NCBI GenBank assembly: GCA_045638385.1
Contig: JAZUBI010000117.1
Coordinates: forward strand, 29,398 to 93,397
Direction of reading: 5' to 3'
Source of the DNA: Eubacteriales bacterium
GTDB taxonomy: Bacteria > Bacillota > Clostridia > Oscillospirales > CAG-272
DNA: 64,000 nt
The notes beneath the pieces were generated by a model. That model had not been told where the DNA came from and searched no databases. It saw only the letters and a list, made by a program, of their open reading frames with translations. Positions 2,847-16,893 of the stretch are shown here, in pieces; within the stretch, counting starts at the first letter, position 1; every line of letters begins with the position of its first letter. Both the position numbers and the translations under genes were made by a program.

Positions 2847-3827
2847 ATGAGTAACGAAGCAATAAAAAAAGTGTATGACAAGATATGCGAATATGATCGT
2901 ATTATAATCTTCCGTCATTTCAGACCCGATGGAGATGCAATCGGATCAACAAAGGGATTACAAAGAATTTTACAGCTTTCCTTTCCCGAAAAGGAGATTT
3001 ATCTCTTAAACAGCGATTTTTCCGATTACCTATCGTTTTTAGGCAAGGAAGATGATCCGATCGACGATTCCCTTTATGCCGATGCGCTCGGTATCGTTAT
3101 GGACACGGGTACAAGCTCGAGAATATCAAATAAAAAATATAAACTTTGCAGAGAAATAGTTAAATTTGATCACCACATTCCGATTGAATCTTACGGTGAC
3201 GTTGAATGGGTTGAAGAATTGCGTTCTTCAACGTGTGAGATGGTTGCGGCATTCTATGATGCTCTTTCGGACAAGCTGAAGATAGATAAGCTCGCTGCAA
3301 CATATATATACACGGGTATGGTTACAGACTCAGGCAGATTCCGTTTCCGTGACGTTTCGTCTGAAACAATGCGTCTTGCCGGCATAATGCTTGATTTTAA
3401 AATTGATACCGAATGGATCTATGCAAATCTTTACATGAAGGATCTTGCTTCATTCAAGTTTGAATCTTTCGTTTATACTAAGATTAAAATGACTGAAAAC
3501 GGCGTCGCTTATTTCCATGCAACACAAGCGATCCAGGACAAATGGGAGCTTACTCCCGAATCTGCGAGCGCTTCCGTTTCATATATGGATTCGATCAAGG
3601 GTTCACTGATATGGATCGCCTTTATTGATAATCCCGACGGAACAATACGCGTTAGACTTCGTTCGAGATTTTTACACGTTAATCAGATCGGTGAAAAATA
3701 CCGCGGCGGAGGACACGCTTCAGCTTGCGGCGCAACACTTCACAACAAAAAAGAAATCAAGATGCTTCTTGCTGATGCAGACAAGCTCCTTAAGGAATAC
3801 AAGGAAAATAACGAGGGCTGGTTATGA
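2847..3827 (+). CDS. DHH/DHHA1 phosphoesterase, NrnA-like (paralogue 2)
   Basis: FRHFRPDGDAIGS, DTG, FDHH and RGGGHASACGA motifs. RBS AAGGAG. Starts 2 nt after paralogue 1. Confidence 0.75.
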   Translation: MSNEAIKKVYDKICEYDRIIIFRHFRPDGDAIGSTKGLQRILQLSFPEKEIYLLNSDFSDYLSFLGKEDDPIDDSLYADALGIVMDTGTSSRISNKKYKLCREIVKFDHHIPIESYGDVEWVEELRSSTCEMVAAFYDALSDKLKIDKLAATYIYTGMVTDSGRFRFRDVSSETMRLAGIMLDFKIDTEWIYANLYMKDLASFKFESFVYTKIKMTENGVAYFHATQAIQDKWELTPESASASVSYMDSIKGSLIWIAFIDNPDGTIRVRLRSRFLHVNQIGEKYRGGGHASACGATLHNKKEIKMLLADADKLLKEYKENNEGWL

Positions 3828-4549
3828 AAATACTTATAACTAACGATGACGGCATTGAAGCTCTCGGTATAAAATTGCTTGTTGAATGGGCGAAAAAGCT
3901 TGGTGATGTCACCGTGGTCGCCCCAAAAGTTGAACAGAGCGGAAAAAGTCACGGAATTGAGCTCACCCATCCCATCGAGGTGCTTGACAGATCTGACTTG
4001 TACGGCGTTGAGGCATTCTCGGTAGATTCTACTCCTGCCGATTGTGTAAGATTCGGAATACTTGGACTTAAGAGGTCTTTTGATCTCGTTCTTTCCGGCA
4101 TCAATAGAGGCGCTAATCTTGGCAAGGATATTGTGTACTCGGGTACTGTAGGCGCAATTTTCGAGGCTGTGGCGCTGAATCACAAGGCTATTGCCTTCTC
4201 TACCTTCCCTGATGCCTTAAACGATGCTTCCAAGCATCTTGGCACTGCGTATGATTTTATAATGGGAAATAAGCTTCTTGAGCTGAATCCAATATATAAC
4301 GTAAATATCCCGCCTATTGCCAACGGCGTTAAGATCACACGCCAGGGTGCTTCTTATTTCGCTGATGAATTTGTCTCGATTGGAAATAATCTTTACAGCC
4401 AAAAAGGATATTATACACCCGACAGCGACCAAAGCAACATCGAATTGGATGCAGTTGCAGTAAATCACGGTCTGATTTCGATCACTCCGATGCAAAATGA
4501 CAGAACTGATATTTCAACCTACAACACAATAAAAAACCTCTTACCGTAA
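3824..4549 (+). CDS. surE: 5'/3'-nucleotidase SurE
   Basis: MKILITNDDGIEALGI...GINRGANLG signature. ATGA start/stop overlap with the upstream gene. Confidence 0.85.
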   Translation: MKILITNDDGIEALGIKLLVEWAKKLGDVTVVAPKVEQSGKSHGIELTHPIEVLDRSDLYGVEAFSVDSTPADCVRFGILGLKRSFDLVLSGINRGANLGKDIVYSGTVGAIFEAVALNHKAIAFSTFPDALNDASKHLGTAYDFIMGNKLLELNPIYNVNIPPIANGVKITRQGASYFADEFVSIGNNLYSQKGYYTPDSDQSNIELDAVAVNHGLISITPMQNDRTDISTYNTIKNLLP

Positions 4550-4570
4550 TTCGGTAAGAGGCCTTTTTTT
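4531..4570. terminator. bidirectional intrinsic terminator between surE and the RNase gene
   Basis: A6, then CCTCTTACCG / CGGTAAGAGG 10-bp stem, then T7. It overlaps both stop codons. Confidence 0.8.
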
Positions 4571-5777
4571 ATAGTCGGTTTTCAAAAGCTGAGAACTTTC
4601 TCGTATAATACAAATCACCCGATAATATAACGGAAAAATAATAGGTTACACTTGCTGTGGAATCCTCTGTTTTTAGTACAATAGAAGCTTCATACACTTC
4701 AACGTAAGGAGTAGGATTGTAGTGTGAGTTGCTTGATAATGTGCCGCCTCCGGTTATGTTACCAAACATCTCGCCCCAACCGCCGAAATAGTTCAAATAC
4801 TCCTGAAAATCATTATAGTGATTATAGGTGTAAAAAATATAAACTACATCGGTTGAATCTGTTATTCCATTTTTATTGAGGTCATTCCAGGTGTAAACTA
4901 AGCGAGCCGCGCCGCGTGTTATGATAGAGCCGTCATTATAGATTCGAATAGAATATCCGGGATCACAGTCGGTTCCTGTTGTACCGATATCCATCTCCCA
5001 ATACTGGAGATCTCCTCCACATCCGTTGATTCTCGGCAAAACAGGCTCATAAGGGTATTTGGTTGTATTTCCACTGAATTTGGTGTTATTCACACGAAGA
5101 TACTTGCCCCAAATGCTGTCAGTAGGCTTTGTTCTCTTGCTTGACGAATGATTTGCAGGTGGCTCACCGAACGCATAAATATATGCGGCAACCTCCTCAA
5201 GAGTTATATATCCACCGCCGCGGTATACACGGAGAACCTCTTGTCCATAAGCATTTACAACAACGTATGTATTATAATCGATGTAATATGAATTTGTATT
5301 TTTAACATATTTGCCATCAATTATAGGTCGATATTCAGAAATAGTCGGAGCCTGGTCGGGCACAGTGTCAGCACCCGCAATTTCACCTCGTGATGCGCGG
5401 TCACTTGCATCCTCATAGCTTGTTGCAGGATTGCTGTTACCGTAAAATTTATCACGACTCGCTTCATCAACCGCCGAAAGGTCATCCGTCTCGGCTTCAG
5501 TGGATGTTTCACTCTCAGTATTATCGCTCGCAAATGATTCAGTTTCGGTGTTATTCTCTGATTCGTCTTCGGTTTCAACCTTTTGTGAATCATTTTCTGT
5601 TCCTTGACTTTCACTATTGGATTCAAATGTTGATGTGCTAATCGTTTCATCGAGCGTTTGATCTTCAGCTACGTCTTTATCTCTTCCGCGATCTTCGGTT
5701 ATATCGCAGGAAACAGAAAACAAAAGTACCGCGATGAGTAAGAAAGTCGATAAAAACTTTAAGAACTGTTTTTTCAT
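4569..5777 (-). CDS. secreted lipoprotein with barnase/RNase Sa-family (N1/T1) ribonuclease domain
   Basis: Lipobox LLFSVSC, then an acidic S/T/E linker. EVAAYIYAFGEPPANH, QYWEMDIG, TRGAARLVY and YNHYNDFQEY align with barnase VADYLQTYHKLPDNY, WREADI, RNSDRILY and TDHYQTF. The ATG at 5777 has RBS GAAGGAA and is preferred over the TTG at 5795. Confidence 0.7.
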   Translation of the reverse strand: MKKQFLKFLSTFLLIAVLLFSVSCDITEDRGRDKDVAEDQTLDETISTSTFESNSESQGTENDSQKVETEDESENNTETESFASDNTESETSTEAETDDLSAVDEASRDKFYGNSNPATSYEDASDRASRGEIAGADTVPDQAPTISEYRPIIDGKYVKNTNSYYIDYNTYVVVNAYGQEVLRVYRGGGYITLEEVAAYIYAFGEPPANHSSSKRTKPTDSIWGKYLRVNNTKFSGNTTKYPYEPVLPRINGCGGDLQYWEMDIGTTGTDCDPGYSIRIYNDGSIITRGAARLVYTWNDLNKNGITDSTDVVYIFYTYNHYNDFQEYLNYFGGWGEMFGNITGGGTLSSNSHYNPTPYVEVYEASIVLKTEDSTASVTYYFSVILSGDLYYTRKFSAFENRL

Positions 5778-5808
5778 ATATAATTCCTTCTGCAAATTTA
5801 TTCGAATA

Positions 5809-5918: not shown

Positions 5919-8738
5919 TTATTCAGCGTCAACTGCAGTGAACTGACCCCAGTTATAGCTACCGGTGAGATCATAGCAGCTGAAGTTATTGTAAGTGCTG
6001 CTGGCACCTGCACCGAATGCACGGTTATTGGAATCCAAAGCAACTGCGAGCGTGTTCTTCTCAGCGTTCCATTCAAATGCAGTTGCACTTGCGGCATCGG
6101 TAACCAACGAGCCGCCGGTTGAAGTGTCATCCATTACAACGTAGGTCTTTGTATCGGCTACATAGAAGTAAAGGAGATACTCGCCTGCGTTTGTTGCATT
6201 CTCAACATAAACTGTTACAGCCTTGGAAGCATCAGAAGAACCGTTGAAGCGTCCGCCGGAAACAGTTCCGTCGAAGTAAAGTAAACCGTTTGCATTAGCA
6301 GCAGAAATGGTGTAGCCTTTACCAACCTCAAGACCTGCACTAGGTGTGGGAGCAGGAGCTTCTCCGCCGGTCGCGCCGCCTTCTGTGCCTTCGCCACCCT
6401 CAGAGCCTTCGCCGTTATCGGGAGTTACAGGGATCTCTGCCATCTCAACGAAGTTATACTCGAGCGGGAACTGCTCTACGCCGGTGTTATCTGCTGTGAT
6501 GTAAGAAAGCTTGGAAGCACTTACAGTCTCAAAAGTATTATATGTTCCGAGGTAGTACTCTGTTCCGCCAAATACTGCAACCCACGCATTTACAGTTGCA
6601 TTGTAGTTAAATACAGAATTGCCTGCTGCATCATACTTAACAGAAAGCTTACCCTCATCATTGTTGTATATAGTGATATACTGCTTAGCACCTTCTACAA
6701 CGATATAGAACTTGTAGCCGTCTGCAACCTTTTCAGCGTAAACAGTTACTGCCTTTGTTGCGTCATCGGTAGTTGTAAGATATCTTCCGCTTACACCGCC
6801 GTCAAGGTAAAGAACCTTGTTATCAACCTTAGCCTGAGTAAGAGAAGCGGTGTGCGATCCATCAGGAACAGCTACGAGAAGCTCAAGCGGGAACTGAGAA
6901 ACACCGGTGTTCTCTGCAGTGATGTAAGAAAGGTTAGATACACTAATGGTATCAAAGTTGTTATATGTTCCGAGGTATACTTCTGTATCGTTGAATACAG
7001 TAACGTATGCATTTACGGTAGGATTGTATGTAAAAACAGTGTTTCCTGCAGCGTCATAGTTTACAGAGGTCTTGTTTTCGCTGTTGTTGTAAATTGTAAT
7101 ATACTGCTTAGCACCCTCTACGAGTATATAGAACTTATAGCCGCCTGCAACCTTTTCAGCATATACGCCAACAGCCTTGGATGCATCAGTGGTGGTTGTG
7201 AGATATCTTCCGCTTACACCGCCGTCAAGGAAGAGAGCGGTACCGTTCTTAGCCTGGTAGATGTAAGGAATGTAAGGAAGTGTCTCGGACATAACAAGAG
7301 CGGGAGCTACCTCAACGGTATACTCCTTGGTCTCGGTCAATTCGCCAAGAGTGATTGTAGCTGTGAACTTAAGAGTTACAGCATCTGCACCAAGCTTGAT
7401 CTCAACCTTACCGTCATCGCCGATGGTGAAGGCTGTGTTGTCAACAGTCCATGCGAACTTAACATCGCTATAGTACTGACCAACCAAGGGGAGAGTGAGG
7501 ACTGTATCAGCGCTGATAGATCCGGGAACTACAAGATCCTTAACCTCATCAGCAATCTTCTCAGCGGGAGTCTTCTCTACAAGCTCGAGATACTCGAAGC
7601 AATCAACGCTCATAGGAATGAGGTAAGGAGCGCCGCTGTAAAGAACGAGGATACCGGTTGCGTTAGCAGTCCAGCCATACTTTTCAGCATGTGCTGTCTC
7701 GATAGCAGTCTTGTCAGGGCTGGAAACTGCGCCGTTCTCGCCCTTAACGATTGTAAGAGTTGTGGGGAAATCAGTAACGTAAGATCTTACGTAAGCGGTC
7801 TTACCGTTAAGCTCAAAGTTAAGGTAATCACTCGAACCGCCAAGAACCTGATTCTTGATGGTTACACCCTTAATGGTTACAGGGAGACCAACGTAGTTCT
7901 TGAGATCGGCACCGGATGCGAACTTGTCGGTGATATCAAGAACATCTACAGACTTGATTGTTTCATCAACGATCGCAAATGTACCGCCCTTGAGCTCCTG
8001 CATTCCGGAGTAAGGCTCTACAACAGAGGTTACTGCAACAGTCATACCGACCTTAACGCCTTCAGCAACAGGGTCCATATCGAGCTGGTAGCAGTAGTAA
8101 CCGCCCTTGCCGTCTACATCAGCGAGGAAGAGGTGGTTTCTGGAGTTTCCAACGCTCTTAGCGTTCATTGCAACAACGATACCCTCAACAACCATGTTAG
8201 TACCCTTCTCTGCAGCCATGTACTCCTCAAAGGTAGCTACATCGTAAACAGGTACAACGAGATTAAGAGTAAAGGTGGCGGTTGTGCCGTCTCCTGCAGT
8301 TACAGTTGCAGTAAGAGTATAGCTGTACTCTTCTGCTGTCTTGTGCTCAAGGTCGATTGTCCAATCAGACTCGCCCTTAATAGCCTTTACCTTCTCGTTG
8401 TTGGAAGCCCAATCAACGGTGTAAGGAACGTTAGCGATTCTAACCTGGGAAACAAGAGTGAAATCAGCGCCTGTAACGTTGTTTTCCTTGTACTTAGCGT
8501 AGAGTGCATTGAGGTTAGCAACTGCTGCCTCGACATCATACTCGATATCAGGTGTGGGATCTGTCACCGATTCAGACTCGGACTCAGATTCGCTTCCTGC
8601 GGACTCGGTAGGTGTCTCGGTGCTTGCCGAGGTACCGCTTCCTGAGGTTGTGGTTTCTTCATTTCCCTTCTTATCACATGCAGCAAAAATTGCAAGGCAC
8701 ATGATAACAGCAAGGAAGATAGCAATAATTTTTTTCAT
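5919..8738 (-). CDS. 939-aa surface lipoprotein: Ig-like region, two OB-fold-like domains, three copies of a ~105-aa module
   Basis: Lipobox AIFAAC, S/T/E linker, RBS AAAGGAGA. The segment GTNMVVEGIVVAMNAKSV...VTSVVEPYSGMQELKGG looks like the OB fold seen in YhcR-type nucleases. It carries internal tandem repeats. Confidence 0.75.
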   Translation of the reverse strand: MKKIIAIFLAVIMCLAIFAACDKKGNEETTTSGSGTSASTETPTESAGSESESESESVTDPTPDIEYDVEAAVANLNALYAKYKENNVTGADFTLVSQVRIANVPYTVDWASNNEKVKAIKGESDWTIDLEHKTAEEYSYTLTATVTAGDGTTATFTLNLVVPVYDVATFEEYMAAEKGTNMVVEGIVVAMNAKSVGNSRNHLFLADVDGKGGYYCYQLDMDPVAEGVKVGMTVAVTSVVEPYSGMQELKGGTFAIVDETIKSVDVLDITDKFASGADLKNYVGLPVTIKGVTIKNQVLGGSSDYLNFELNGKTAYVRSYVTDFPTTLTIVKGENGAVSSPDKTAIETAHAEKYGWTANATGILVLYSGAPYLIPMSVDCFEYLELVEKTPAEKIADEVKDLVVPGSISADTVLTLPLVGQYYSDVKFAWTVDNTAFTIGDDGKVEIKLGADAVTLKFTATITLGELTETKEYTVEVAPALVMSETLPYIPYIYQAKNGTALFLDGGVSGRYLTTTTDASKAVGVYAEKVAGGYKFYILVEGAKQYITIYNNSENKTSVNYDAAGNTVFTYNPTVNAYVTVFNDTEVYLGTYNNFDTISVSNLSYITAENTGVSQFPLELLVAVPDGSHTASLTQAKVDNKVLYLDGGVSGRYLTTTDDATKAVTVYAEKVADGYKFYIVVEGAKQYITIYNNDEGKLSVKYDAAGNSVFNYNATVNAWVAVFGGTEYYLGTYNTFETVSASKLSYITADNTGVEQFPLEYNFVEMAEIPVTPDNGEGSEGGEGTEGGATGGEAPAPTPSAGLEVGKGYTISAANANGLLYFDGTVSGGRFNGSSDASKAVTVYVENATNAGEYLLYFYVADTKTYVVMDDTSTGGSLVTDAASATAFEWNAEKNTLAVALDSNNRAFGAGASSTYNNFSCYDLTGSYNWGQFTAVDAE
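6457..7285 (-). repeat. in-gene tandem duplication (2 x ~400 bp) encoding the LDGGVSGRYLTTT...GYKFYI...YLGTYN...SYIT module
   Basis: Two adjacent copies are roughly three-quarters identical at protein level by eye. A third degenerate copy lies at about 5925..6345. Confidence 0.85.
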
Positions 8739-8770
8739 AGCGTCTCCTTTTAAATTTGTATGAAAATTTT

Positions 8771-10204
8771 TTATTCAACAATAGTTATATCATTAGGGGA
8801 GAATACCTTGATTTGACTTTCACCCTCGAAGGTCTCAATAATACCCTTGACGTTTATGGTCTTTCCTCTGTATGCATCTGCGGTGATCTTGTTATTGTTT
8901 TCATCATAGAAAACGGTTGTGCGAACCTTAACCGTAACACCGTTAGACTCACATAAGAGTGTCATTGCGCCAAAGCTACTACTTTCCTCATTGGTTGTGG
9001 TTGATACGCTCTTTACATAAAGATTCTCCATGCTTATTGAAGAATAAATTGCAACGTCAGCGTAATCATATGTCTCAGTTGTCTCATTTTCCTCTGCGTC
9101 TGTGAAGGTTACTTCTACTTTACCGTTTGCAAACTTCTCCGCAGTTGTGGGTAGATATACGGGCTCATGTCCGTCACTGAGTTTTTTAATATTTGTCGGA
9201 TCATCGGGCTTCATTACTCTATAGCTGAGTCCGGAAACCTGATAAGTTCCGCCTGTTTCATAATATTGAACGGTGCCAACAATTCTTGATTCATTTCCAA
9301 CGGAAAGTATTTCCATTGCTTGTCCGTTCATACCGAAACCGTAATAAACATACATTCCGTACCAAACGTCGGTCTCTTCGTCATAGCTTTCAACATAGAC
9401 AGCATTATTGGAGTTTACAGTTATGATACCGGTAAATGCAACCTTAACACCGTTATACTCTTCAATGTTACAACGAAGCTCCTTCAAGGTAACAACCTGC
9501 GCTTCACCGTAATAGAAATCGGGGTCCTGCTGGCCGGAATAGACATGCAATTTAGAAGCCTTAGCCTGAGCAATCGCAGACATACAGAGCTCGCCGTAAC
9601 GGTTATTTGCGGAGTTTGACGCAATTGCAAGGCCATTCTGAAGTATCTCAAGATTCAAATTACGGTACGAATCAGAGCCTTGAGGCTTATACCATACCCA
9701 AAGCAAATATCTGTCACCGGTTGAATCCGCATTGAGAATATCAGTATCAGATTCAATAATAATGGATTCAGCAGTAGAAAGCTTACTCTTGGTGAAAGAA
9801 GATGCAGCCTTTCCCCACTCCTCGATCTTACCTGTCGACTCGGGTGTATTAACAGCAAGGTATCTTGCCTTGATTACACCGGTGCTGATAAGCGATGTGG
9901 GAACGTAGAAATGCGTTGTGTCACCGTCAATAAAAGCCTTTACGGTAACCTCCTGCTTAAGCGTGCTTGAGGTCATATCAAGCTTAAGCTGGTCAACAAA
10001 ATCAACGTACTCAAGAGTACCGTCGGTTTCGCTTTCTGACTCACTCTCCGATCCGCCCGGAGTTGTAGATTCACTACCGCCCTCCGTCTCGGATTGCTTG
10101 TCATTATCTTTTTTATTGTTTTTTTCGGTATCGCATGCCGACATGCATCCAAAAAGGATGCATATCAGCAATACGACTGCTAAAATTTTTACAATATTTT
10201 TCAT
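8771..10204 (-). CDS. thermonuclease (staphylococcal nuclease) family lipoprotein with C-terminal OB-fold-like domain
   Basis: Lipobox LFGC. FIDGDTTHF, ARYLAVNTPES, WGKAASSFTKSKL, GDRYLLWVWY and LEILQNGLA align with the SNase IDGDT / RLLLVDTPE / YGPEASAFTKKMV / GRGLAYIY / EALVRQGLA blocks. Confidence 0.8.
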   Translation of the reverse strand: MKNIVKILAVVLLICILFGCMSACDTEKNNKKDNDKQSETEGGSESTTPGGSESESESETDGTLEYVDFVDQLKLDMTSSTLKQEVTVKAFIDGDTTHFYVPTSLISTGVIKARYLAVNTPESTGKIEEWGKAASSFTKSKLSTAESIIIESDTDILNADSTGDRYLLWVWYKPQGSDSYRNLNLEILQNGLAIASNSANNRYGELCMSAIAQAKASKLHVYSGQQDPDFYYGEAQVVTLKELRCNIEEYNGVKVAFTGIITVNSNNAVYVESYDEETDVWYGMYVYYGFGMNGQAMEILSVGNESRIVGTVQYYETGGTYQVSGLSYRVMKPDDPTNIKKLSDGHEPVYLPTTAEKFANGKVEVTFTDAEENETTETYDYADVAIYSSISMENLYVKSVSTTTNEESSSFGAMTLLCESNGVTVKVRTTVFYDENNNKITADAYRGKTINVKGIIETFEGESQIKVFSPNDITIVE

Positions 10205-10225
10205 AAATTACCTATCAGTCAGTAA

Positions 10226-11716
10226 TTAAGAGAGATACTTACACTTTGCAATTGCCTGATCGAAAGCGTCCTTGATGAGTGCATCAACGTCTCCGTCAGC
10301 AATAACAAGGCACTGCTGCATAAGAAGTCCAACCTGGTCACGAGCAACGGATGAACCGTTGAACGCGGGAGATGTATAGTACGCATCAACCTGCTCCAAG
10401 CAAATCTTTGCAGAGAGAGCTGCAATGTAGTCACCGCCGTCTGCCTTGTCAAGGAACTTGGTCTTGTAAGCATCGTATTCAGCAACAGACTCAAGTACCG
10501 GAACGTATCCTGATACCATGGAGAACTCAGCCTGGAAATCAACGTTGGTTGTAAGGAACTTCATAAAGAGCCAAGAAGCATAAACCTCCTGCTTGTTCTC
10601 TTTCTCAAATATACAGAGAGAAGGACCCTGAGAAATTACCTTGGGATTTGCGGGATCAACCTGAGGAATGGTAGCAATTCCAACCTCGAAGGGATAAGAG
10701 TTACCAACCTTTGTAGGACGCTGGTGAGTAGCACCTGCGGAGGAACCGATGGACATGTAGCTTCTCTGTCCCTCAGTAGCTACGAAAAGACCGGATGTAT
10801 ATGATCCGAAGAGCTCCTGAGTAGTAAGATAGCCCTTCTTATACCAATCTCTGAATTCCTTGACAAATGCTCTGTTTTCAGCGGTATTAAAGAGGAAGTG
10901 CTCACCGGTTGCGCTTGTGTAGGGAGTGCCAAGCTGCTCGGTCATAGTAATGAACCAGTTTGCCTCACTGTCATATCCGAGAGGAATGCAATCAGGATCA
11001 ATTTCAAGAATTCTTGCGCAAAGAGCCTCAAGCTCATCCCATGTTGTGGGAGGAGTAAGGTTGTGCTTATCGAAGAATGTCTTGTTGTAGTAAAGAACCT
11101 CGGTAGACTTGGAAAGCGGGAGGGTGTACATTTTACCGTCACCGAACTGCTTACCTTCATTGTAATAACCGTCAATAAAGTCATCTATCTGTACCTGAGA
11201 GAGACCCATACGCTCTTCCTCTCCGTCAGCGCGCTCAACAACAGCCAAGCTATTGATGAGAGAGTTAAGCGGAACAACAGCCTTAGAGATGTTGTAAAGA
11301 GCCACGTGGTCGGGATAGCAGTAAGCTATATTGGGCTGGTTACCAACGGTGATCTCAGTGCTTATACGTGTACGTACATCGTCGTAACCACCAACCTGCT
11401 CGTGCTGAACGGTGATGTTAGGATAGAGCTTGTTGAACTCTTCGATGTAAGCGTTGAGAACGTCAGAAAGGTTCTGACCCATCGTGTGATAGAAAACGAT
11501 GGTTACCGCACTACCGTCGTAGCCTTCTTCATCGGAGTCGATAATTCCGTCTCCGGATCCTTCTGTGCCTTCTGTGCTTTCCTTCTCAGAAGTGCTTTCG
11601 CCGGGCTTTTTGTCATCATCCTTCTTATCGTCAGATGACTTGTCGCAGCCAACAAATGCAAAGCAGCTAAGAACAAGTGCAAGCAACAAAATCACAGCAA
11701 CAAGTGATTTTTTCAT
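10226..11716 (-). CDS. ABC transporter substrate-binding lipoprotein (family-1 / CUT1 type)
   Basis: Lipobox AFVGC and K/D/E/S linker. Length and pattern are typical of MalE/UgpB-like SBPs. The ATG at 11716 has RBS GGAGGA and is preferred over 11731. Confidence 0.75.
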   Translation of the reverse strand: MKKSLVAVILLLALVLSCFAFVGCDKSSDDKKDDDKKPGESTSEKESTEGTEGSGDGIIDSDEEGYDGSAVTIVFYHTMGQNLSDVLNAYIEEFNKLYPNITVQHEQVGGYDDVRTRISTEITVGNQPNIAYCYPDHVALYNISKAVVPLNSLINSLAVVERADGEEERMGLSQVQIDDFIDGYYNEGKQFGDGKMYTLPLSKSTEVLYYNKTFFDKHNLTPPTTWDELEALCARILEIDPDCIPLGYDSEANWFITMTEQLGTPYTSATGEHFLFNTAENRAFVKEFRDWYKKGYLTTQELFGSYTSGLFVATEGQRSYMSIGSSAGATHQRPTKVGNSYPFEVGIATIPQVDPANPKVISQGPSLCIFEKENKQEVYASWLFMKFLTTNVDFQAEFSMVSGYVPVLESVAEYDAYKTKFLDKADGGDYIAALSAKICLEQVDAYYTSPAFNGSSVARDQVGLLMQQCLVIADGDVDALIKDAFDQAIAKCKYLS

Positions 11717-11778
11717 GGTGTTTTCCTCCATTAAATAATTTTATTTGTGTTAAGCCATTCGTTTTAGCGAATAAGCGA

Positions 11779-12801
11779 TTAACCTTTGATACCGCTTCGG
11801 CTGACGCCCTTCATGATGTACTTTCTAAGGAAGATAAATACAAGGAAGAGCGGGAGTGAAACGAGCGCAACCGCAGCCATCTGCGCGGGGTAGTCTGTCA
11901 TACCGTCAGCGCCTGAGAATGCGTGACGCAATCCGTTGGTTATGAGTCGGTAGTTCTTATCGTGAGCAACGAGGTTAGGCCACATATAAGAGTTCCATGC
12001 ACCCATCATCTTCAAAATAGTGATTGAAATGATTGTAGGAAGTGCGAGAGGAATCATTACCTTACAGAGATATTTGAAATCGCTTGTACCGTCAACCTTT
12101 GCTGCAAGGTAAAGCTCATTGGGTATCTGCAAGAAGTTCTGTCTCAAAAGGTAGATATAGAAAATACTTACCAAGAAAGGAACTATCAATGCTGCGTATG
12201 TCGAGTCGACCATAGGAATCTTGAAATCAGGTCCAAAGAGACCGTACATGTTTCCAAGTCCGTTAAATACAACCTTAAACCAGCTGTCCTGCTTCATAAC
12301 GGTAGCGTAGTTTGTGATTGTAAACAACTCACCGGGTATCATCATAGTACCGAGGAGCGCTGCGAACAAAGCATTCTTACCCTTGAATTTAAGTCTTGCA
12401 AAAGCAAATGCAGAAAAGATAGTAATTACAAGCGACAGGATCGTAGAAACAATACCTACGTACATTGTGTTTCTGAGCAACAGGAACAAATCAAATTCAG
12501 TATGCTGACCCGTAAGGATGCTTGTATACGTTTCAACTCTTATTTTGTTCGGGAAAAGAGTAGGAACAGGAAGATTATACTCTTCGAGTGTCTTCAATGA
12601 CGAAACGATCATGAAGTAGAACGGGAAAAGGATAATCAGCGCCATAATACTAAGGAAAGTATAAACCAATATCTTTCCAATGATCTTTTTGATCTTCTGG
12701 CTTGTTGCGACCTGATGTATGTCACGATCCTGCATAACCTTATTTTTAGGAGTAGCTTCAGACTCTTTCTTTTTGAAGTTAAATAATTCTTTAATTTTCA
12801 C
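11779..12801 (-). CDS. ABC transporter permease (MalG-like)
   Basis: EAA-type loop LAAKVDGTSDFKYLCKVMIPLALP and multiple TM segments. The GTG at 12801 is preceded by AAGGAGG and is preferred over the overlapping TTG at 12822. Confidence 0.8.
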   Translation of the reverse strand: MKIKELFNFKKKESEATPKNKVMQDRDIHQVATSQKIKKIIGKILVYTFLSIMALIILFPFYFMIVSSLKTLEEYNLPVPTLFPNKIRVETYTSILTGQHTEFDLFLLLRNTMYVGIVSTILSLVITIFSAFAFARLKFKGKNALFAALLGTMMIPGELFTITNYATVMKQDSWFKVVFNGLGNMYGLFGPDFKIPMVDSTYAALIVPFLVSIFYIYLLRQNFLQIPNELYLAAKVDGTSDFKYLCKVMIPLALPTIISITILKMMGAWNSYMWPNLVAHDKNYRLITNGLRHAFSGADGMTDYPAQMAAVALVSLPLFLVFIFLRKYIMKGVSRSGIKG

Positions 12802-12818
12802 GTCTGTTCCCTCCTTTA

Positions 12819-14741
12819 TCAATAATGGGTGCTCTTTTTGCTGATCCAGAGGTTAAACATGGTAACAACAAAGATTATAGCGAAGAGGATCAATGCAGCC
12901 GCGCCCGCTCTTCCGTAGTTAGAGGATCCGAGCTGATCCTGAATGTGTCCAACGATTGTATTCATGTTGGGGCTTCCGCCGGTAACCATTCTATCGTCAC
13001 CGAAGATACCGACAACGCTGGAATATTCCTTAAATCCACCGATAAAGCTGGTGATAACGGTGTAAGTGATCATAGGAGAAAGCAGCGGAACGGTTATGCG
13101 GAGAAGCACACGCCACTTGGGTGTTCCATCAACCTTTGCGGCATCATAATACTGCTTATTGATACTCTGCAAGCCGCCAAGCAATATAAGGATCTTAAAG
13201 GGCAACGCATTCCAAACGATATAAACTATCAATGCGGTAAATGCCGCCCAAGGCTCTGCGCCCTGGTTGATCCAGTTAATGCGGTCGATGCCGAATACGC
13301 CCAAAATATTGTTTATAATACCGACCGACTCACTGGTGGAGTTGATTCCGACGATGTTAAACATTGCCGCGAATACCATACCGATCGCTATGGAGTTTGT
13401 AACGTAAGGAAGGAAGAAGATTGTCTGAAGGAATCTCTGGAGCGCCTTGATAGAGTTAAGAGCAACTGCGATCAAGAGAGCTAATACAGTTGAAATCGGA
13501 ACTGTAATGACAGTAAGAATAAGAGTGTTCTTCAAGCAAAGCATGAAGTCACTTCCCTCATCGGTAAGAACCTGAACAAAGTTCTGAAGACCGAACTTCG
13601 ATACGGTATCACCCTGTAAGAGGTTTGCAGTCAATCTAAGACCTGCATTGTCAGATTCAGCATCGGTCAAATATGTAAGAGTACCGTTCGCAAAGCGATA
13701 CGCACCTATACGGTATGCGTCGTCTGAATAAAGCTGGGTCATTTCCTTTGCTTCACCGTCGGCGCTGTCTCTGTGCATATAGATTGCCGCAGGAGCAGCT
13801 GCTTCTTCAGCATTGATGTTGGACAAGAGAGCGAGGGACAAGCGGCTATCGTAATTATCGAGTGCAAGATAATATACATTGTCCTCGAATGTACATGTCC
13901 AAGCCTTATGCTCCTTGCTGTAGAAGAAGACATCACCGTCACCCAAAGCATATTTCAAGGTAACATTTCCATCTTCATCGGAGACAGCCTTTATAAAGAG
14001 GTTCTCCTCTGCTGATGTTGAATTCTTGATATAAAGCTTATATCCTCTGACATCGTCAACCTTTACCGACTTAGGCCAGATCTGAGCAGCCTTATTAAGT
14101 GCGGTTGTTGCACCAACGTTCCCCTCGGTGGATGATCCCTTAACGTACATATACGCCTCAGGCGTACCCTTGAAAACTCCGAGCTTATAATATTTATCTG
14201 TGAATCCCGCCTCATCCTTATCGGATTTCTCGGTTTCAGTCTCAGCTTCGCCCTCGTTTTCATCGTCCGCAGCGGACTCGGGAATAGCAAGACTGCTGAA
14301 GGTCTCCTCAAAGAGTCCCGCAGGGTAAATAGTCTTACCAATCTTATCGATGTTATCGTTCAACGCGTAAACGTTAAGATCACTTGCCTCTTCAGCGCCG
14401 AGGAAGTAAACAGTATCATTTACTGTAGTTGTCCAAACACCGTGCTCTTCATTATAGAAGAATGAGCTCTTGGAGCTTGTTGCGTATTGCAATTCAAGAA
14501 CGCCATCTTCATTCTTATCGGCTACAAGATAATTTTTTGAGTTCTTGTCGCCAAGGCGGTAGAAATAGTAACCGCCGTCATCTGCAGCTTCGACGTTAAC
14601 GTGCGCCATGCTGTAATTCACGTCATATATAAACGATGTGACGACCGTATTGATAATAGGCCACACAGTAAATATAAGAAGCAAAATGATAGCAGGAAGC
14701 AGGTATAGCCAAGCTTTCCATTGATGTTTGCTATCTACCAT
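12819..14741 (-). CDS. ABC transporter permease (MalF-like) with ~345-aa insert between TM1 and TM2
   Basis: TM1 at about aa 8-37. The canonical permease core starts at about aa 385 (YDAAKVDGTPKWRVLLRITVPLLSP). aa 38-383 contain two copies of the lipoprotein module plus an acidic linker. Confidence 0.8.
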   Translation of the reverse strand: MVDSKHQWKAWLYLLPAIILLLIFTVWPIINTVVTSFIYDVNYSMAHVNVEAADDGGYYFYRLGDKNSKNYLVADKNEDGVLELQYATSSKSSFFYNEEHGVWTTTVNDTVYFLGAEEASDLNVYALNDNIDKIGKTIYPAGLFEETFSSLAIPESAADDENEGEAETETEKSDKDEAGFTDKYYKLGVFKGTPEAYMYVKGSSTEGNVGATTALNKAAQIWPKSVKVDDVRGYKLYIKNSTSAEENLFIKAVSDEDGNVTLKYALGDGDVFFYSKEHKAWTCTFEDNVYYLALDNYDSRLSLALLSNINAEEAAAPAAIYMHRDSADGEAKEMTQLYSDDAYRIGAYRFANGTLTYLTDAESDNAGLRLTANLLQGDTVSKFGLQNFVQVLTDEGSDFMLCLKNTLILTVITVPISTVLALLIAVALNSIKALQRFLQTIFFLPYVTNSIAIGMVFAAMFNIVGINSTSESVGIINNILGVFGIDRINWINQGAEPWAAFTALIVYIVWNALPFKILILLGGLQSINKQYYDAAKVDGTPKWRVLLRITVPLLSPMITYTVITSFIGGFKEYSSVVGIFGDDRMVTGGSPNMNTIVGHIQDQLGSSNYGRAGAAALILFAIIFVVTMFNLWISKKSTHY

Positions 14742-15845
14742 TTACTCCACCTCAAAATAAATTCTTTCTTCAGTTTCTTTGTTAAAGAGGAATACCTTAT
14801 GAGGCTTCAAAGAATAGCTAATGGTTTCGGAATTTATATCGATCTTCTGATCGGAATTGATAATAGAGCGGATAGCGGGGTTGAGCGAGCTCTCATGCGT
14901 TGAAATAACGCTTACGTCGCGTCCCATGACCTCAACGTTAGTGAGCTTGCAAACAAGCTTGCCGTTAGCATCAGGGTTAAATCCTTCAGGACGAACACCT
15001 ACATAAACCTCCTGATCCTCAACACCGGGAACAGAGAGAACCTCGGAATTGCCAAGGTAGAGCTTTTCAGCCTTAACCTCACCCTGGAATACGTTGATCG
15101 GAGGAGTTCCAAGGAACTTAGCAACGAAAAGATTTGTGGGGCTATCGTAAATATCCTGAGGCTTGCCGATCTGCTGGAGAACACCGAGCTTCATAACTAC
15201 GATCATATCGGAAATAGACATAGCCTCTTCCTGGTCGTGTGTTACGAATACAGTAGTAATTCCGGTTTCCTTCTGGATTCTTCTGATCTCTTCACGAGTC
15301 TGGAGACGGAGACGAGCATCGAGGTTGGAAAGCGGCTCGTCAAGAAGGAGAACGCGAGGCATCTTTACAAGTGCACGCGCGATAGCAACTCTCTGCTGTT
15401 GACCACCGGAAAGCTCACTGGGCTTTCTGTCCATAAGCTCATCAATCTGAACAAGGCGAGCTGCCTCGAGAGCTCTCTCGTTCATTTCGGTCTTTGTAAG
15501 CTTGTCCGCACCCTTAAGGTTCTGAAGCGGGAACAAAATATTCTGTCTTACGGTAAGGTGAGGATAGAGTGCGTAGTTCTGGAACACGAGTCCAACGCCT
15601 CTGTTTTCGGGGGAAAGCGCGGTTACGTCCTCTTCACCAAAGAAAATCTTACCGGACGAAGGCTTTTGAAGACCACTGATCATGTAAAGAGTGGTACTCT
15701 TACCACAGCCCGAAGGGCCGAGAAGACCGACGAGCGTTCCGTCGGGGATAGTGAAGGTAAAATCATTTACCGCCACTACTTCCTCACCCGACTTTTTGTT
15801 TCGGCTGGGGAAGATCTTTGTTAGATTTTGAAGTTCGACTTTCAT
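14742..15845 (-). CDS. ABC transporter ATP-binding protein (MalK/UgpC/MsmX-like)
   Basis: Walker A GPSGCGKST, signature LSGGQQQRVAIARAL, Walker B LLLDEPLS, and a C-terminal MalK-type regulatory domain. RBS AGGAGG. Confidence 0.9.
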   Translation of the reverse strand: MKVELQNLTKIFPSRNKKSGEEVVAVNDFTFTIPDGTLVGLLGPSGCGKSTTLYMISGLQKPSSGKIFFGEEDVTALSPENRGVGLVFQNYALYPHLTVRQNILFPLQNLKGADKLTKTEMNERALEAARLVQIDELMDRKPSELSGGQQQRVAIARALVKMPRVLLLDEPLSNLDARLRLQTREEIRRIQKETGITTVFVTHDQEEAMSISDMIVVMKLGVLQQIGKPQDIYDSPTNLFVAKFLGTPPINVFQGEVKAEKLYLGNSEVLSVPGVEDQEVYVGVRPEGFNPDANGKLVCKLTNVEVMGRDVSVISTHESSLNPAIRSIINSDQKIDINSETISYSLKPHKVFLFNKETEERIYFEVE

Positions 15846-15924: not shown

Positions 15925-16686
15925 TTAATACGACTGTTCCTTTGCCTTTTTCTCGGCAATGCTCTTCTTATATTCGATGAGCTCCTCTGTATCGTTAAAC
16001 ATCATTTGCGTTTGCATGTCGACGGTAACGGTCACTGCGAAAAGATCGTGTATCATTGAATTTGTTTTTGTGAAAATCATAAGACAGAGCTGCAGGATAA
16101 GAATTGCTACAATGAGTATCAATCCCAATGTTCCGAGCAGGCCCATGAAAACGAACAGCGCAAGGAATATCGGGAACATAGTCTCGACCGTGAATTTACC
16201 GAGAATAGTTCTGACGAAAACCTGCAGGGGGGTTATTTTAACACCGTCCACCCTCATAAGACCAATTCGGAAAAGCTTTTTTCCGATGGTTTGTCCGTTT
16301 TTGAATACGAGCGGAAGAACAAGCTCCAATATGATAAATGAAAACAACAGAGCAAGAGATGCAATCGCAATGAACAAAAGAATGATCTCCACCTGCAATT
16401 TTTTAAGAGTACTGTCACTTCTCAGCTCAAGTGTAGCCTCATCGTACCTGACTCTATCGGGTCCGGGGAGAGCATCAACCTCTTCCTGAGTCAAATCAAG
16501 TCTGGTGCTGTATTTTTCCTCGTAAGAATAGTAAAGCTCGTTATACTGCGCGACCTTTGACTCATATCCGAGGACATAGGACAAAACGGGCGCCAAAGCG
16601 AGGACGACAAGACACAAAATAAGAAAATCCACGAGAAATGCAGCGAGTCTTTTGGATACGCTTGCTTTGTATAATTCAAACTTCAT
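15925..16686 (-). CDS. RDD family membrane protein
   Basis: N-terminal SKRLAAFLVDFLIL plus the central KNGQTIGKKLFRIGLMRVDG motif typical of RDD proteins. The ATG at 16686 has RBS GGAGAT and is preferred over 16737. Confidence 0.65.
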   Translation of the reverse strand: MKFELYKASVSKRLAAFLVDFLILCLVVLALAPVLSYVLGYESKVAQYNELYYSYEEKYSTRLDLTQEEVDALPGPDRVRYDEATLELRSDSTLKKLQVEIILLFIAIASLALLFSFIILELVLPLVFKNGQTIGKKLFRIGLMRVDGVKITPLQVFVRTILGKFTVETMFPIFLALFVFMGLLGTLGLILIVAILILQLCLMIFTKTNSMIHDLFAVTVTVDMQTQMMFNDTEELIEYKKSIAEKKAKEQSY

Positions 16687-16893
16687 TTCGATCTCCAAAC
16701 ACACCAAATTGATGGGGTTATTGGCTTTTCGTGGCATTTTGACCCCATTTTCACATTATACATCATAAGTATAGCACATTGTTTGACAAAAAACAAGAGT
16801 TTTTTCAAAATATCTTAATTGTAAATTTTTGATTAATATTTCGAGATTCACTGCGACATTACAAAATTTATTTTTATACTTTACATATTTTTC

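What the first reader, a model, noticed from the sequence alone, without database searches (positions are those of the whole stretch)
5925..14630. One ~105-aa module occurs three times on the OB-fold lipoprotein and twice inside the TM1-TM2 loop of the ABC permease of the same operon
Seen: the lipoprotein module LYLDGGVSGRYLTTTDDATKAVTVYAEKVADGYKFYIVVEGAKQYITIYNNDEGKLSVKYDAAGNSVFNYNATVNAWVAVFGGTEYYLGTYN...SYI is present three times. Two copies are well conserved at 6457..7285 and one is degenerate at about 5925..6345. It aligns block by block with permease aa ~196-308 (YMYVKGSSTEGNVGATTALNKAAQIWPKSVKVDDVRGYKLYIKNS..NLFIKAVSDEDGNVTLKYALGDGDVFFYSKEHKAWTCTFEDNVYYLALDN...SNI). It aligns more loosely with aa ~55-135 (GGYYFYRLGDKNSKNYLVADKNEDGVLELQYATSSKSSFFYNEEHGVWTTTVNDTVYFLGAE). 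The insert (aa 38-383, nt 13593..14630) lies between the first TM helix and the canonical permease core. In ordinary CUT1 permeases this is a short extracytoplasmic loop. Inference: a membrane-embedded permease displaying the same putative ligand-binding module as a surface lipoprotein suggests polymer capture coupled directly to the transport channel. I know of no described ABC permease with such a repeat-bearing ectodomain.
Basis: partly seen in the sequence, partly recalled or inferred. Interest (0 to 1): 0.7.

Follow-up and report, generated by a model that had tools for sequence, protein, structure and literature searches.

The report
Beta-trefoil-like ectodomain inside ABC permease
A gut Clostridia ABC importer that sits in a DNA/RNA-scavenging operon has, in one outward-facing loop of its membrane subunit, two copies of the same uncharacterised ~130-residue surface module that its neighbouring lipoprotein carries three times: a real, conserved but untested variant of the accessory loop domain known from the E. 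coli maltose transporter.

Summary
The 939-aa lipoprotein (5919-8738, -) carries three copies of a ~125-130-aa module. The 640-aa permease (12819-14741, -) carries two more inside a 346-aa insert between TM1 and the permease core. A profile built only from lipoprotein copies finds both permease copies (HHalign E 3e-16 and 1e-18; shuffle z 8-15). The insert lies outside the cell, at the position of the MalF P2 loop. AlphaFold models it confidently as all-beta. Its fold is tentatively beta-trefoil-like; no known CBM or Pfam family matches. The insert was acquired once: about 70 of 80 orthologous operons have a 312-aa permease with a 40-61-aa loop, and all 66 long homologues keep both copies. It is under purifying selection (dN/dS about 0.1). 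The module family has about 2,000 clusters and co-occurs with OB folds and nuclease domains, not glycosidases. The operon (SNase lipoprotein, UgpB-like SBP, RNase-like lipoprotein, facing SurE/DHH/HD genes) resembles the Mollicutes MslA-nuclease-ABC nucleotide-uptake operons. Ligand capture at the transporter mouth is plausible but untested. SBP docking, as in MalF-P2, is the main rival. Verdict: new variant of a known kind, moderately interesting.

The parts
12819..14741 (-). Long MalF/UgpA-like ABC importer permease, 640 aa
   Evidence: Pfam BPD_transp_1 at aa 418-636. NCBIfam MalF positions 255-518 align to aa 372-637. Best Foldseek hits of the AF2 model are MalF chains, E 1.6e-10. An identical protein, P0121, is in NCBI.
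14631..14723 (-). TM1 (aa 7-37), collinear with TM1 of the short orthologues
   Evidence: AF2 helix 7-37. The alignment with 312-360-aa orthologues shows identical flanks, so this is an internal insertion and not a fusion.
14295..14630 (-). P1: N-terminally truncated module copy (aa 38-149)
   Evidence: Lipoprotein-only HMM: 45 bits, profile positions 34-104. HHalign E 3e-16. pLDDT above 90, all-beta.
14202..14294 (-). Acidic low-complexity linker (aa 150-180), predicted disordered; variable or absent in orthologues
   Evidence: pLDDT 47-66. Net charge -10. Absent in L001 and L003.
13764..14201 (-). P2: full-length module copy (aa 181-326)
   Evidence: Lipoprotein-only HMM: 43 bits, profile positions 10-122. 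HHalign Prob 99.1%, E 1e-18. 11-12 beta strands with pLDDT mostly 81-96.
13593..13763 (-). P3: conserved four-strand beta segment (aa 327-383, motif DDAYRIGA) that returns the chain to TM2; not demonstrably a module piece
   Evidence: Strands 343-383 in the AF2 model. Invariant residues in this segment. HHalign against the module gives E 0.07. dN/dS 0.04-0.14.
12822..13592 (-). Canonical permease core, TM2-TM6 with the EAA loop (aa 531-556)
5919..8738 (-). 939-aa surface lipoprotein: lipobox, acidic tether, OB-fold-family region, aBig_2 domain, three modules
   Evidence: Translation. aBig_2 at aa 413-478. 356 homologues, about 20 of the 120 listed carrying Pfam OB fold PF01336 and one named OB-fold nucleic acid binding protein by NCBI. 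The window copy itself does not reach a Pfam OB hit.
6873..7259 (-). Lipoprotein module LA (aa 494-622)
6450..6845 (-). Lipoprotein module LB (aa 632-763); the copy modelled with AF2
5925..6323 (-). Lipoprotein module LC (aa 806-938), the divergent copy
   Evidence: 37% identity to LA, E 2e-12. HMM E 1e-46.
11779..12822 (-). Second permease (MalG/UgpE-like). It carries a ~24-32-aa insertion in its TM3-TM4 outer loop (nt 12199-12294) that is found only where permease 1 has the ectodomain.
   Evidence: Pfam and NCBIfam hits. Alignment of 8 long-clade against 12 short-clade orthologues. Coordinates.
10226..11731 (-). Lipoprotein substrate-binding protein (SBP_bac_8/1, UgpB-like)
8771..10204 (-). 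SNase-family nuclease lipoprotein with a C-terminal beta-rich region
   Evidence: Pfam SNase E 2e-9. NCBIfam thermonuclease NucI.
14742..15845 (-). MalK/UgpC-like ABC ATPase
15925..16737 (-). RDD-family membrane protein, first gene of the conserved operon
4569..5795 (-). 408-aa lipoprotein, last gene of the operon; sub-threshold barnase/T1-type ribonuclease domain
   Evidence: PF00545 scores 17-20 bits at the same profile positions in the window copy and in 7 of 10 further orthologues.
800..4549 (+). Convergent cytoplasmic cluster: HD phosphohydrolase, two DHH-DHHA1 (NrnA-like) proteins, SurE nucleotidase
   Evidence: Pfam. The same cluster sits next to the operon in many orthologous loci.

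Best explanation
SHOWN.
- The 640-aa protein is the MalF-like membrane subunit of a type I, binding-protein-dependent ABC importer.
- Its first outward-facing loop is the loop that carries the Ig-like P2 domain in E. coli MalF. Here it holds a 346-residue all-beta ectodomain.
- The ectodomain consists of a truncated copy (P1) and a full copy (P2) of a ~125-130-aa module, a disordered acidic linker, and a conserved 57-aa beta segment that leads back into TM2.
- The module belongs to an unnamed family of about 2,000 clusters at 50% identity. The family occurs in 1-7 tandem copies on surface proteins that also carry OB folds, aBig_2 domains and nuclease catalytic domains. The lipoprotein of this operon has three copies.
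- The insert arose once, in one monophyletic sub-clade of an otherwise widespread operon of uncultured gut and rumen Clostridia.
- It has been kept in every member under purifying selection. It is accompanied by a clade-specific insertion in an outer loop of the partner permease.

INFERRED FROM CONTEXT.
- The operon scavenges extracellular nucleic acid. The SNase-type and RNase-like lipoproteins would cut the polymer. A UgpB-like SBP and the ABC transporter would import nucleotides or short oligonucleotides. DHH/NrnA-like enzymes, SurE and an HD hydrolase would finish degradation inside the cell.

INFERRED MECHANISM (least certain).
- The module is a substrate-targeting module, the nucleic-acid counterpart of a CBM.
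- On the permease it holds the polymer or its fragments, or the lipoproteins bound to them, at the mouth of the transporter. Nuclease products would then be released next to the SBP and the pore instead of diffusing away.
For: - Homology.
- Extracytoplasmic position equivalent to MalF-P2. AF2 helices place TM2-TM4 between the insert and the EAA loop. MalF positions 255-518 align to aa 372-637. MalF chains are the best structural hits. The P2 loop is MalF residues 91-276 (PMC6906923).
- Confident fold: insert pLDDT mostly above 85; LB model pLDDT 84.7, pTM 0.80.
- Fold class: all 50 listed Foldseek PDB hits are beta-trefoil proteins from several unrelated families, including IL-1, Kunitz STI, BoNT/NTNH HC, HA33/HA17 and lysenin.
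- Family size and copy number: 2083 proteins at E<=1e-3, with up to 7 copies per protein.
- Partner domains in 80 sampled members: aBig_2 in 22, OB fold in 12, Endonuclease_1 in 3, Endonuclease_NS in 1, and no glycoside hydrolase or CBM. Among lipoprotein homologues, PLDc_2 and Endonuclease_NS also occur.
- Single origin and retention. Among the 80 species-representative loci, 9 have a long permease and 71 a short one. Long cores are monophyletic in a neighbour-joining tree, 14 of 14. All 66 long clusters have two copies. dN/dS is 0.06-0.20 for P1, 0.07-0.13 for P2 and 0.02-0.04 for the core.
- Co-varying insertion in permease 2.
- Operon conservation and the adjacent SurE/DHH/HD cluster.
- Mollicutes precedent: a DNA-binding lipoprotein (MslA/P80), an SNase lipoprotein and a 'sugar-type' ABC transporter are co-transcribed and proposed to import nucleotide precursors (PMC3585158, PMC4045577).
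Against: - No binding or transport data exist for any member.
- The modules are acidic. Net charge is -4 to -12 in the window. The median is -5 for lipoprotein copies and -12 to -14 for permease copies. That argues against simple electrostatic binding of a phosphate backbone, although the SNase and OB regions of the same operon are equally acidic.
- The beta-trefoil assignment is weak: Foldseek E >= 0.05 and TM 0.33-0.49. Internal three-fold sequence symmetry is not significant.
- Permease copies have lost motifs that are conserved in lipoprotein copies, namely G21 and the C-terminal T.S.S..SY. Their function may therefore have diverged.
- The only characterised domain at this site, MalF-P2, docks the SBP rather than the substrate.
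- About 70 of 80 orthologous operons work without the insert, so it is an accessory and not a requirement.
Confidence: 0.45

Rival explanations
1. SBP-docking platform. As with MalF-P2, the ectodomain recruits and positions the tethered substrate-binding lipoprotein on the transporter. The captured modules serve only as a structural scaffold and bind no substrate.
For: - The insertion site is the same as MalF-P2, which binds MalE throughout the transport cycle (PMC6906923).
- Permease 2 has a co-evolved outer-loop insertion.
- Permease copies are diverged from lipoprotein copies and more acidic.
- SBP tethers are longer in the long-permease clade: median 64 aa against 25.5 aa, Mann-Whitney p 4e-6.
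Against: - The tether lengthening is not specific to the SBP. SNase and OB-lipoprotein tethers are about 40 aa longer too. The comparison is also not phylogenetically corrected, because the insert has a single origin.
- The SBP core shows no clade-specific insertion or deletion.
- The fold differs from the Ig-like P2 domain.
- This reading does not explain why the same module is multiplied on nuclease and OB-fold proteins.
Confidence: 0.25
2. Assembly scaffold. Module-module or module-lipoprotein contacts tether the OB-fold lipoprotein and/or the SNase to the permease. The result would be a fixed surface complex for nucleic-acid use, a Gram-positive analogue of a Sus-type utilisome.
For: - The same module sits on both partners in one operon.
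- All three lipoprotein tethers are lengthened in the clade that has the ectodomain.
- The operon gene order is strictly conserved.
Against: - There is no evidence that these modules self-associate.
- Some long-permease loci have OB-lipoproteins with no detectable module (L005, L009).
- Homotypic assembly is not a typical role of beta-trefoils (own knowledge).
Confidence: 0.12
3. Glycan-binding lectin or CBM-like module. The transporter is a sugar importer, as annotated, and the beta-trefoil copies bind a dietary, host or cell-wall polysaccharide.
For: - Public annotation reads 'sugar ABC transporter permease'.
- The components are CUT1/MalF-like.
- Beta-trefoil is a classical lectin and CBM13 fold. 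Several hits are sugar-binding proteins (HA33, BoNT HC, lysenin).
- Aromatic content is high, about 15%.
Against: - No Pfam Ricin-B, CBM13 or CBM42 hit appears even at E<=10.
- No glycoside hydrolase or CBM was found among the partner domains of 80 members, whereas OB folds and nucleases recur.
- Every orthologous operon has an SNase gene and most adjoin SurE/DHH/HD genes.
- The homologous 'sugar-type' operon of Mollicutes is linked to DNA binding and nuclease activity (PMC3585158, PMC4045577).
Confidence: 0.08
4. Chance or compositional similarity, an assembly chimera, or a decaying remnant without function.
For: Aromatic-rich, acidic beta-strand sequences can give spurious local alignments. 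The LC-P1 and LC-P2 similarities alone are weak.
Against: - Profile-profile E values are 1e-16 to 1e-18 and shuffle z scores are 8-15.
- The same architecture occurs in 66 protein clusters from many independent assemblies.
- dN/dS is about 0.1.
- AF2 confidence in the insert is higher than in the TM core.
Confidence: 0.01

Closest known systems
P2 loop of E. coli MalF (maltose transporter MalFGK2)
   Same: - A large folded extracytoplasmic domain inserted between the two TM helices that correspond to TM1 and TM2 of the six-helix core (MalF TM3/TM4).
- The host is a MalF-type subunit of a type I importer with a MalK-like ATPase.
- MalF is the best structural and NCBIfam match of the core.
- The domain is an accessory that most homologues lack.
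   Different: - MalF-P2 is a single Ig-like domain of about 185 aa that binds MalE (PMC6906923).
- Here the insert is 346 aa: a tandem pair of beta-trefoil-like modules plus a linker and a beta segment.
- It has no sequence relation to P2.
- The modules are shared with a lipoprotein of the same operon.
- The binding partner is unknown.
Mollicutes MslA/P80 - SNase lipoprotein (mhp379, MAG_5040) - ABC 'nucleotide transporter' operon
   Same: - An SNase-family nuclease lipoprotein, an SBP-like lipoprotein and a 'sugar-type' ABC transporter (one ATPase, two permeases) lie in one transcription unit.
- A DNA-binding surface lipoprotein is part of the system.
- The proposed role is import of nucleic-acid precursors (PMC3585158, PMC4045577).
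- The window SBP gives a weak NCBIfam hit to the mycoplasma P68 lipoprotein family.
   Different: - The organisms here are walled gut Clostridia.
- The locus has an extra OB-fold/module lipoprotein and an RNase-like lipoprotein.
- Orthology to the mycoplasma genes was not tested.
- The sources I read report no permease ectodomain for the mycoplasma systems.
- Transport substrates are unproven in both systems.
Beta-trefoil ligand-binding domains (ricin-B/CBM13 lectins, clostridial HA33 and BoNT HC-C, IL-1/FGF, Kunitz STI)
   Same: - An all-beta module of about 130 aa with 11-12 strands.
- Every listed Foldseek hit belongs to this fold class.
- It occurs in tandem arrays attached to polymer-degrading enzymes, as CBM13 does.
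- One family member gives a Pfam hit to Inhibitor_I66. From memory, I66 (cospin) is a beta-trefoil.
   Different: - No significant sequence match to any Pfam or PDB family.
- TM scores are below 0.5.
- No QxW-type repeats and no significant internal three-fold repeat.
- Partner domains are nucleases and OB folds rather than glycosidases.
ABC importers with substrate-binding domains fused to the membrane subunit (GlnPQ and OpuA, from own knowledge; Bdellovibrio MalE-MalF fusion, PMC6906923)
   Same: Extracytoplasmic ligand-handling domains, sometimes in tandem, are covalently part of the TMD polypeptide.
   Different: Those are terminal fusions of canonical SBP folds. Here a non-SBP module is inserted inside a loop, and a separate SBP lipoprotein is retained.

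Membership tests
Type I ABC importer membrane subunit (BPD_transp_1; MalF/UgpA-like, CUT1-type) | BPD_transp_1 core with an EAA coupling loop | tested here: met
   Pfam PF00528, E 2.7e-17, aa 418-636. The sequence YYDAAKVDGTPKWRVLLRITVPLLSP at aa 531-556 is invariant among homologues.
Type I ABC importer membrane subunit (BPD_transp_1; MalF/UgpA-like, CUT1-type) | Operon with a MalK/UgpC-like ATPase, a second permease and an SBP | tested here: met
   The gene order is conserved in about 80 loci.
Type I ABC importer membrane subunit (BPD_transp_1; MalF/UgpA-like, CUT1-type) | Structural similarity of the TM core to solved type I importers | tested here: met
   Foldseek: MalF E 1.6e-10; SugA and AlgM1 E about 1e-7.
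MalF-P2-type accessory ectodomain | Insertion between the helices equivalent to MalF TM3 and TM4, on the extracytoplasmic side | tested here: met
   MalF positions 255-518 align to aa 372-637. The P2 loop is MalF 91-276 (PMC6906923). Three TM helices lie between the insert and the EAA loop.
MalF-P2-type accessory ectodomain | Ig-like fold homologous to MalF-P2 | tested here: not met
   The module model matches beta-trefoil proteins only. No sequence similarity to MalF exists outside the core.
MalF-P2-type accessory ectodomain | Binds the cognate SBP | not testable with these tools
   Needs binding assays or a multimer model. Indirect tether-length evidence is ambiguous.
Beta-trefoil fold / CBM13-ricin-B lectins | Twelve-strand pseudo-threefold trefoil architecture | tested here: inconclusive
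Beta-trefoil fold / CBM13-ricin-B lectins | Internal three-fold sequence repeat (for example QxW) | tested here: not met
   HHalign between the three putative leaves gives E 0.004, 0.13 and 0.14, with probabilities below 9%.
Beta-trefoil fold / CBM13-ricin-B lectins | Sequence membership in Ricin_B_lectin, CBM13, CBM42 or any Pfam family | tested here: not met
   No such hit at E <= 10 for four module copies. A PDB profile search finds nothing significant.
Mollicutes MslA/P80-SNase-ABC nucleotide-uptake operon | SNase-family lipoprotein co-located with an SBP lipoprotein and a CUT1-like ATPase plus two permeases | tested here: met
   The arrangement is described in PMC3585158 and PMC4045577.
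Mollicutes MslA/P80-SNase-ABC nucleotide-uptake operon | Orthology of the components to the mycoplasma genes | not tested
   No mycoplasma sequences were compared. There is only a weak NCBIfam lipo_P68 hit of the SBP N-terminus (E 8.5e-7, below the cutoff).
Mollicutes MslA/P80-SNase-ABC nucleotide-uptake operon | Polynucleotide binding by a surface lipoprotein and nuclease activity | not testable with these tools
   Biochemical property. Here it is only inferred from the SNase and OB-fold family assignments.

The most novel reading that the evidence does not exclude
The module is a previously unrecognised family of nucleic-acid-binding (or oligonucleotide/nucleotide-binding) beta-trefoil domains, the nuclease world's equivalent of a CBM. 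The long permease would then be the first type I ABC importer whose membrane subunit itself captures the polymeric substrate. With the tethered SNase, the OB-fold lipoprotein and the SBP it would form an extracellular-DNA/RNA 'utilisome' on the surface of Gram-positive gut bacteria. A half-module fused to the cytoplasmic ATPase in some relatives would then sense the imported product.
Probability: 0.25. Interest if true: 0.75.

Novelty: new variant of a known kind. Interest (0 to 1): 0.55.

Why it matters
Extracellular DNA and RNA are abundant in the gut and rumen, yet how uncultured Clostridia use them is largely unknown.

The finding defines three things:
- A widespread operon (at least 234 species representatives hit) that probably scavenges nucleic acids.
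- An unnamed surface-domain family of about 2,000 clusters tied to nucleases.
- A natural experiment: closely related transporters with and without a 346-aa ectodomain at the MalF-P2 site.

That pair of transporter types makes it possible to test whether accessory loop domains of ABC importers dock the SBP or capture the substrate. If the module binds nucleic acid, it also gives a new handle for annotating surface nucleases and for affinity tools.

Tried and rejected
- The word-index homology search with the isolated insert returned nothing. The full-length query later found 66 long homologues and the identical protein. That was a sensitivity limit of the tool, not evidence of rarity.
- Exact look-ups of the window permease and of P0001 found no contig on record. 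Relatives are Oscillospiraceae, Eubacteriales and Clostridia MAGs from ruminant and human gut.
- Pfam, NCBIfam and a PDB sequence-profile search on the module found nothing significant.
- Internal three-fold symmetry of the module was not significant.
- P3 (aa 327-383) as a fourth trefoil leaf or module remnant was not significant.
- Longer SBP tethers as evidence for SBP docking was rejected as specific evidence, because SNase and OB-lipoprotein tethers lengthen equally.
- No recent donor copy was found for the permease modules. P1 and P2 are as far from every lipoprotein copy (best about 45-52 bits) as from each other. There is no DNA-level repeat between the two genes.
- An OB-fold Pfam hit for the window lipoprotein itself was not obtained. 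That label rests on homologues.

Full report
ANATOMY

On the minus strand, window 4569-16737 holds one gene string:
- RDD-family membrane protein, 15925-16737.
- MalK/UgpC-like ATPase, 14742-15845.
- A 640-aa permease, 12819-14741.
- A MalG/UgpE-like permease, 11779-12822.
- A UgpB-like SBP lipoprotein, 10226-11731.
- An SNase-family lipoprotein, 8771-10204.
- A 939-aa lipoprotein, 5919-8738.
- A 408-aa lipoprotein, 4569-5795.

Facing this string on the plus strand (800-4549) are an HD phosphohydrolase, two DHH-DHHA1 proteins and SurE.

CHECKING THE OBSERVATION

The lipoprotein carries three copies of a module:
- LA: aa 494-622.
- LB: aa 632-763. It is 79% identical to LA in protein and 75% in DNA, with a 423-nt period.
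- LC: aa 806-938. It is 37% identical to LA.

The permease carries two copies, P1 (aa 38-149) and P2 (aa 181-326).

Pairwise blastp gives LB-P1 32% (E 3e-7), LB-P2 28% (E 1e-7) and P1-P2 36% (E 2e-11). Smith-Waterman scores exceed all 1000 shuffles, with z from 8.4 to 14.9.

The decisive test is profile-based. An HMM iterated only on lipoprotein homologues finds both permease copies at 43-57 bits in all 66 long permeases, and the reverse search also works. HHalign of permease-only profiles against the lipoprotein-only profile gives Prob 98.7%, E 3e-16 for P1 and Prob 99.1%, E 1e-18 for P2.

Three corrections apply:
- The module is about 125-130 aa.
- P1 lacks the first ~35 profile positions.
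- The last 57 residues of the insert (P3, aa 327-383) are conserved but not demonstrably module-like.

TOPOLOGY AND POSITION

The N-terminal 37 residues, including TM1, are collinear with those of 312-360-aa orthologues. Those orthologues have only 40-61 residues where the window protein has 346. This is an internal loop insertion, not a fusion.

AlphaFold2 was run on 53 sequences and gave a mean pLDDT of 80. It predicts TM1 (7-37), an all-beta insert with pLDDT mostly 85-97, a disordered acidic linker (150-180), and then the helices of the core.

Three TM helices separate the insert from the EAA loop (aa 531-556). By established knowledge of ABC importers, the EAA loop contacts the ATPase in the cytoplasm, so the insert is outside. 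The charge distribution agrees: K/R residues sit at the N-terminus, in the TM2-TM3 loop, in the EAA loop and at the C-terminus, while the insert has a net charge of -30.

NCBIfam aligns MalF positions 255-518 to aa 372-637. MalF chains are the best Foldseek hits of the model (E 1.6e-10). The MalF P2 loop is residues 91-276 between TM3 and TM4, an Ig-like domain that binds MalE (PMC6906923). The insert is thus positionally equivalent to MalF-P2.

WHAT THE MODULE IS

No Pfam, NCBIfam or PDB sequence match was found.

An exhaustive profile search of 1.84 billion representatives finds 2083 proteins (1769 at E <= 1e-10), with up to seven copies per protein.

Pfam scans of 80 of the best hits show aBig_2 in 22, OB-fold tRNA_anti-codon in 12, Endonuclease_1 in 3 and Endonuclease_NS in 1. 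No glycoside hydrolase or CBM appears. Homologues of the lipoprotein also carry PLDc_2 and Endonuclease_NS, and one is named an OB-fold nucleic-acid-binding protein by NCBI.

The modules are aromatic-rich (about 15%) and acidic, but so is every exported protein of the operon.

EVOLUTION

A scan of one genome per species found 234 relatives. The best 80 loci all carry the same operon: RDD, ATPase, two permeases, SBP, SNase, usually an OB/module lipoprotein and the 408-aa protein. SurE-DHH-DHH-HD is often next to it.

Only nine of these loci (L004-L012) have the long permease. The other 71 have about 312 aa and no module in the permease, while their lipoproteins carry 0-4 copies. The protein database holds 66 long clusters (613-706 aa), and every one has both copies.

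In a neighbour-joining tree of the core, the 14 long sequences are monophyletic. Core identity is 80-99.6% within the clade and 61-73.5% to short ones. This indicates a single acquisition.

P1 and P2 are as distant from every lipoprotein copy as from each other, and the two genes share no DNA repeat. The capture is therefore old.

In unsaturated pairs, dN/dS is 0.06-0.20 for P1, 0.07-0.13 for P2, 0.04-0.14 for P3 and 0.02-0.04 for the core. The ectodomain evolves faster but is clearly under selection.

The partner permease of the long clade has a specific 24-32-aa insertion in its TM3-TM4 outer loop (window aa 177-208). Most long-clade members also have about 20 extra residues in the first outer loop. 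This suggests the ectodomain is built into the outer face of the transporter.

The SBP core is collinear in both clades. Its lipid tether is longer in the long clade (median 64 aa against 25.5 aa, p 4e-6). The SNase and OB-lipoprotein tethers lengthen equally, so this is not specific evidence for SBP docking. It is also not phylogenetically independent.

WHAT THE OPERON DOES

The operon combines an SNase nuclease and an OB-fold-family lipoprotein. It also has a lipoprotein with a consistent sub-threshold barnase/T1 ribonuclease match. That match appears in the window copy and in 7 of 10 further orthologues, at 17-20 bits on identical profile positions. A UgpB-like (phosphodiester-type) SBP and an adjacent SurE/NrnA-like/HD cluster complete the picture. 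Together these point to scavenging of extracellular nucleic acid.

The closest described system is in Mollicutes. There an SNase lipoprotein (MAG_5040, mhp379), an SBP-like lipoprotein (P80/MslA, reported to bind ss and ds DNA) and a 'sugar-type' ABC transporter are co-transcribed. They are proposed to import nucleotide precursors (PMC3585158, PMC4045577, PMC12115388). Substrates are unproven in both systems.

MECHANISM

Shown: an extracytoplasmic, confidently folded, selected, clade-specific tandem-module ectodomain at the MalF-P2 site, homologous to the lipoprotein repeats.

Inferred: the module is a substrate-targeting module for nucleic acid. This rests on its tandem multiplicity, its nuclease and OB partners, and a fold class typical of ligand binding. 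On the permease it would keep the polymer, its fragments, or the lipoproteins bound to them at the transporter mouth.

I give this reading 0.45. The rivals are:
- SBP docking as in MalF-P2: 0.25.
- Lipoprotein assembly scaffold: 0.12.
- Glycan-binding lectin: 0.08.
- Artefact: about 0.01.

Points against the best reading are the acidity of the permease copies and their loss of lipoprotein-specific motifs. The fold assignment is also weak, and most orthologous operons do without the insert.

NOVELTY

Three features appeared in none of the literature or libraries I could search:
- A tandem beta-trefoil-like ectodomain.
- A module family shared between a permease and a lipoprotein of its own operon.
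- The link of that family to surface nucleases.

Verdict: a new variant of a known kind. Interest 0.55.

Noticed in passing
L067:1793-3367, L059:8221-9999, L061:8215-9999, L082:1286-3055, and the 621-aa ATPase of L041: In five short-permease relatives the MalK-like ATPase is 524-621 aa instead of about 367 aa. Its C-terminal extension contains a half-module-like stretch, for example LYLAKSTVGGKLERTADAAEAVTVFVENGEEGYSLYYLDGEEKVYPVIDV in L067. The module HMM gives E 6e-8 there and 5e-4 to 3e-3 in the others. This copy would be cytoplasmic, so it could be a product-sensing regulatory domain.
   Followed up: partly
protein P0230 (545 aa): Another orthologue of the same permease has a different, unrelated ~260-aa insert in the same TM1-TM2 loop. 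It has no Pfam hit and no similarity to anything in the fetched loci. The loop looks like a recurrent insertion site.
   Followed up: partly
proteins P0183-P0186 (696-706 aa): A divergent branch of the long permeases has, in addition to both modules, a ~75-aa hydrophobic insertion in the TM3-TM4 outer-loop region of the core. These may be extra membrane helices.
   Followed up: no
proteins P0189, P0191, P0206, P0236, P0237: Several short orthologues have N-terminal cytoplasmic extensions made of tryptophan-rich repeats such as WVWQTFCVEWVWRTFCVKWVWRGF.
   Followed up: no
window 12199-12294 (permease 2, aa 177-208): An outer-loop insertion (KQDSWFKVVFNGLGNMYGLFGPDFKIPMVDST) is present only in the clade whose permease 1 carries the ectodomain. 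Most long-clade members, but not the window, also have ~20 extra residues in the first outer loop.
   Followed up: yes
window 10226-11731, 8771-10204 and 5919-8738, and their orthologues: The low-complexity acidic or Thr-rich tethers after the lipobox Cys of all three operon lipoproteins are about 40 aa longer in the long-permease clade. Medians are 64 against 25.5 aa for the SBP, 84 against 41 for the SNase and 62 against 19 for the OB-lipoprotein. Whether this is operon-specific or lineage-wide is unknown.
   Followed up: partly
window 4569-5795 (-): The 408-aa lipoprotein that closes the operon gives a sub-threshold hit to Pfam Ribonuclease (PF00545, barnase/T1 type). So do 7 of 10 further orthologues, always at profile positions ~43-96, with 17-20 bits against a cutoff of 24. 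Many orthologues also have a Big_2 domain. It is probably a divergent secreted RNase.
   Followed up: partly
window 800-4549 (+): An HD phosphohydrolase, two DHH-DHHA1 (NrnA-like) proteins and SurE lie convergent to the ABC operon. The same cluster sits beside it in many species. This fits intracellular breakdown of imported oligonucleotides or 3'-nucleotides.
   Followed up: partly
window 17158-23289 (+): A 2043-aa ORF lies upstream of the operon. Its only Pfam hit is a divergent InlB B-repeat (Flg_new_2) at aa 199-266. It is probably a large surface protein and has no copy of the module.
   Followed up: no
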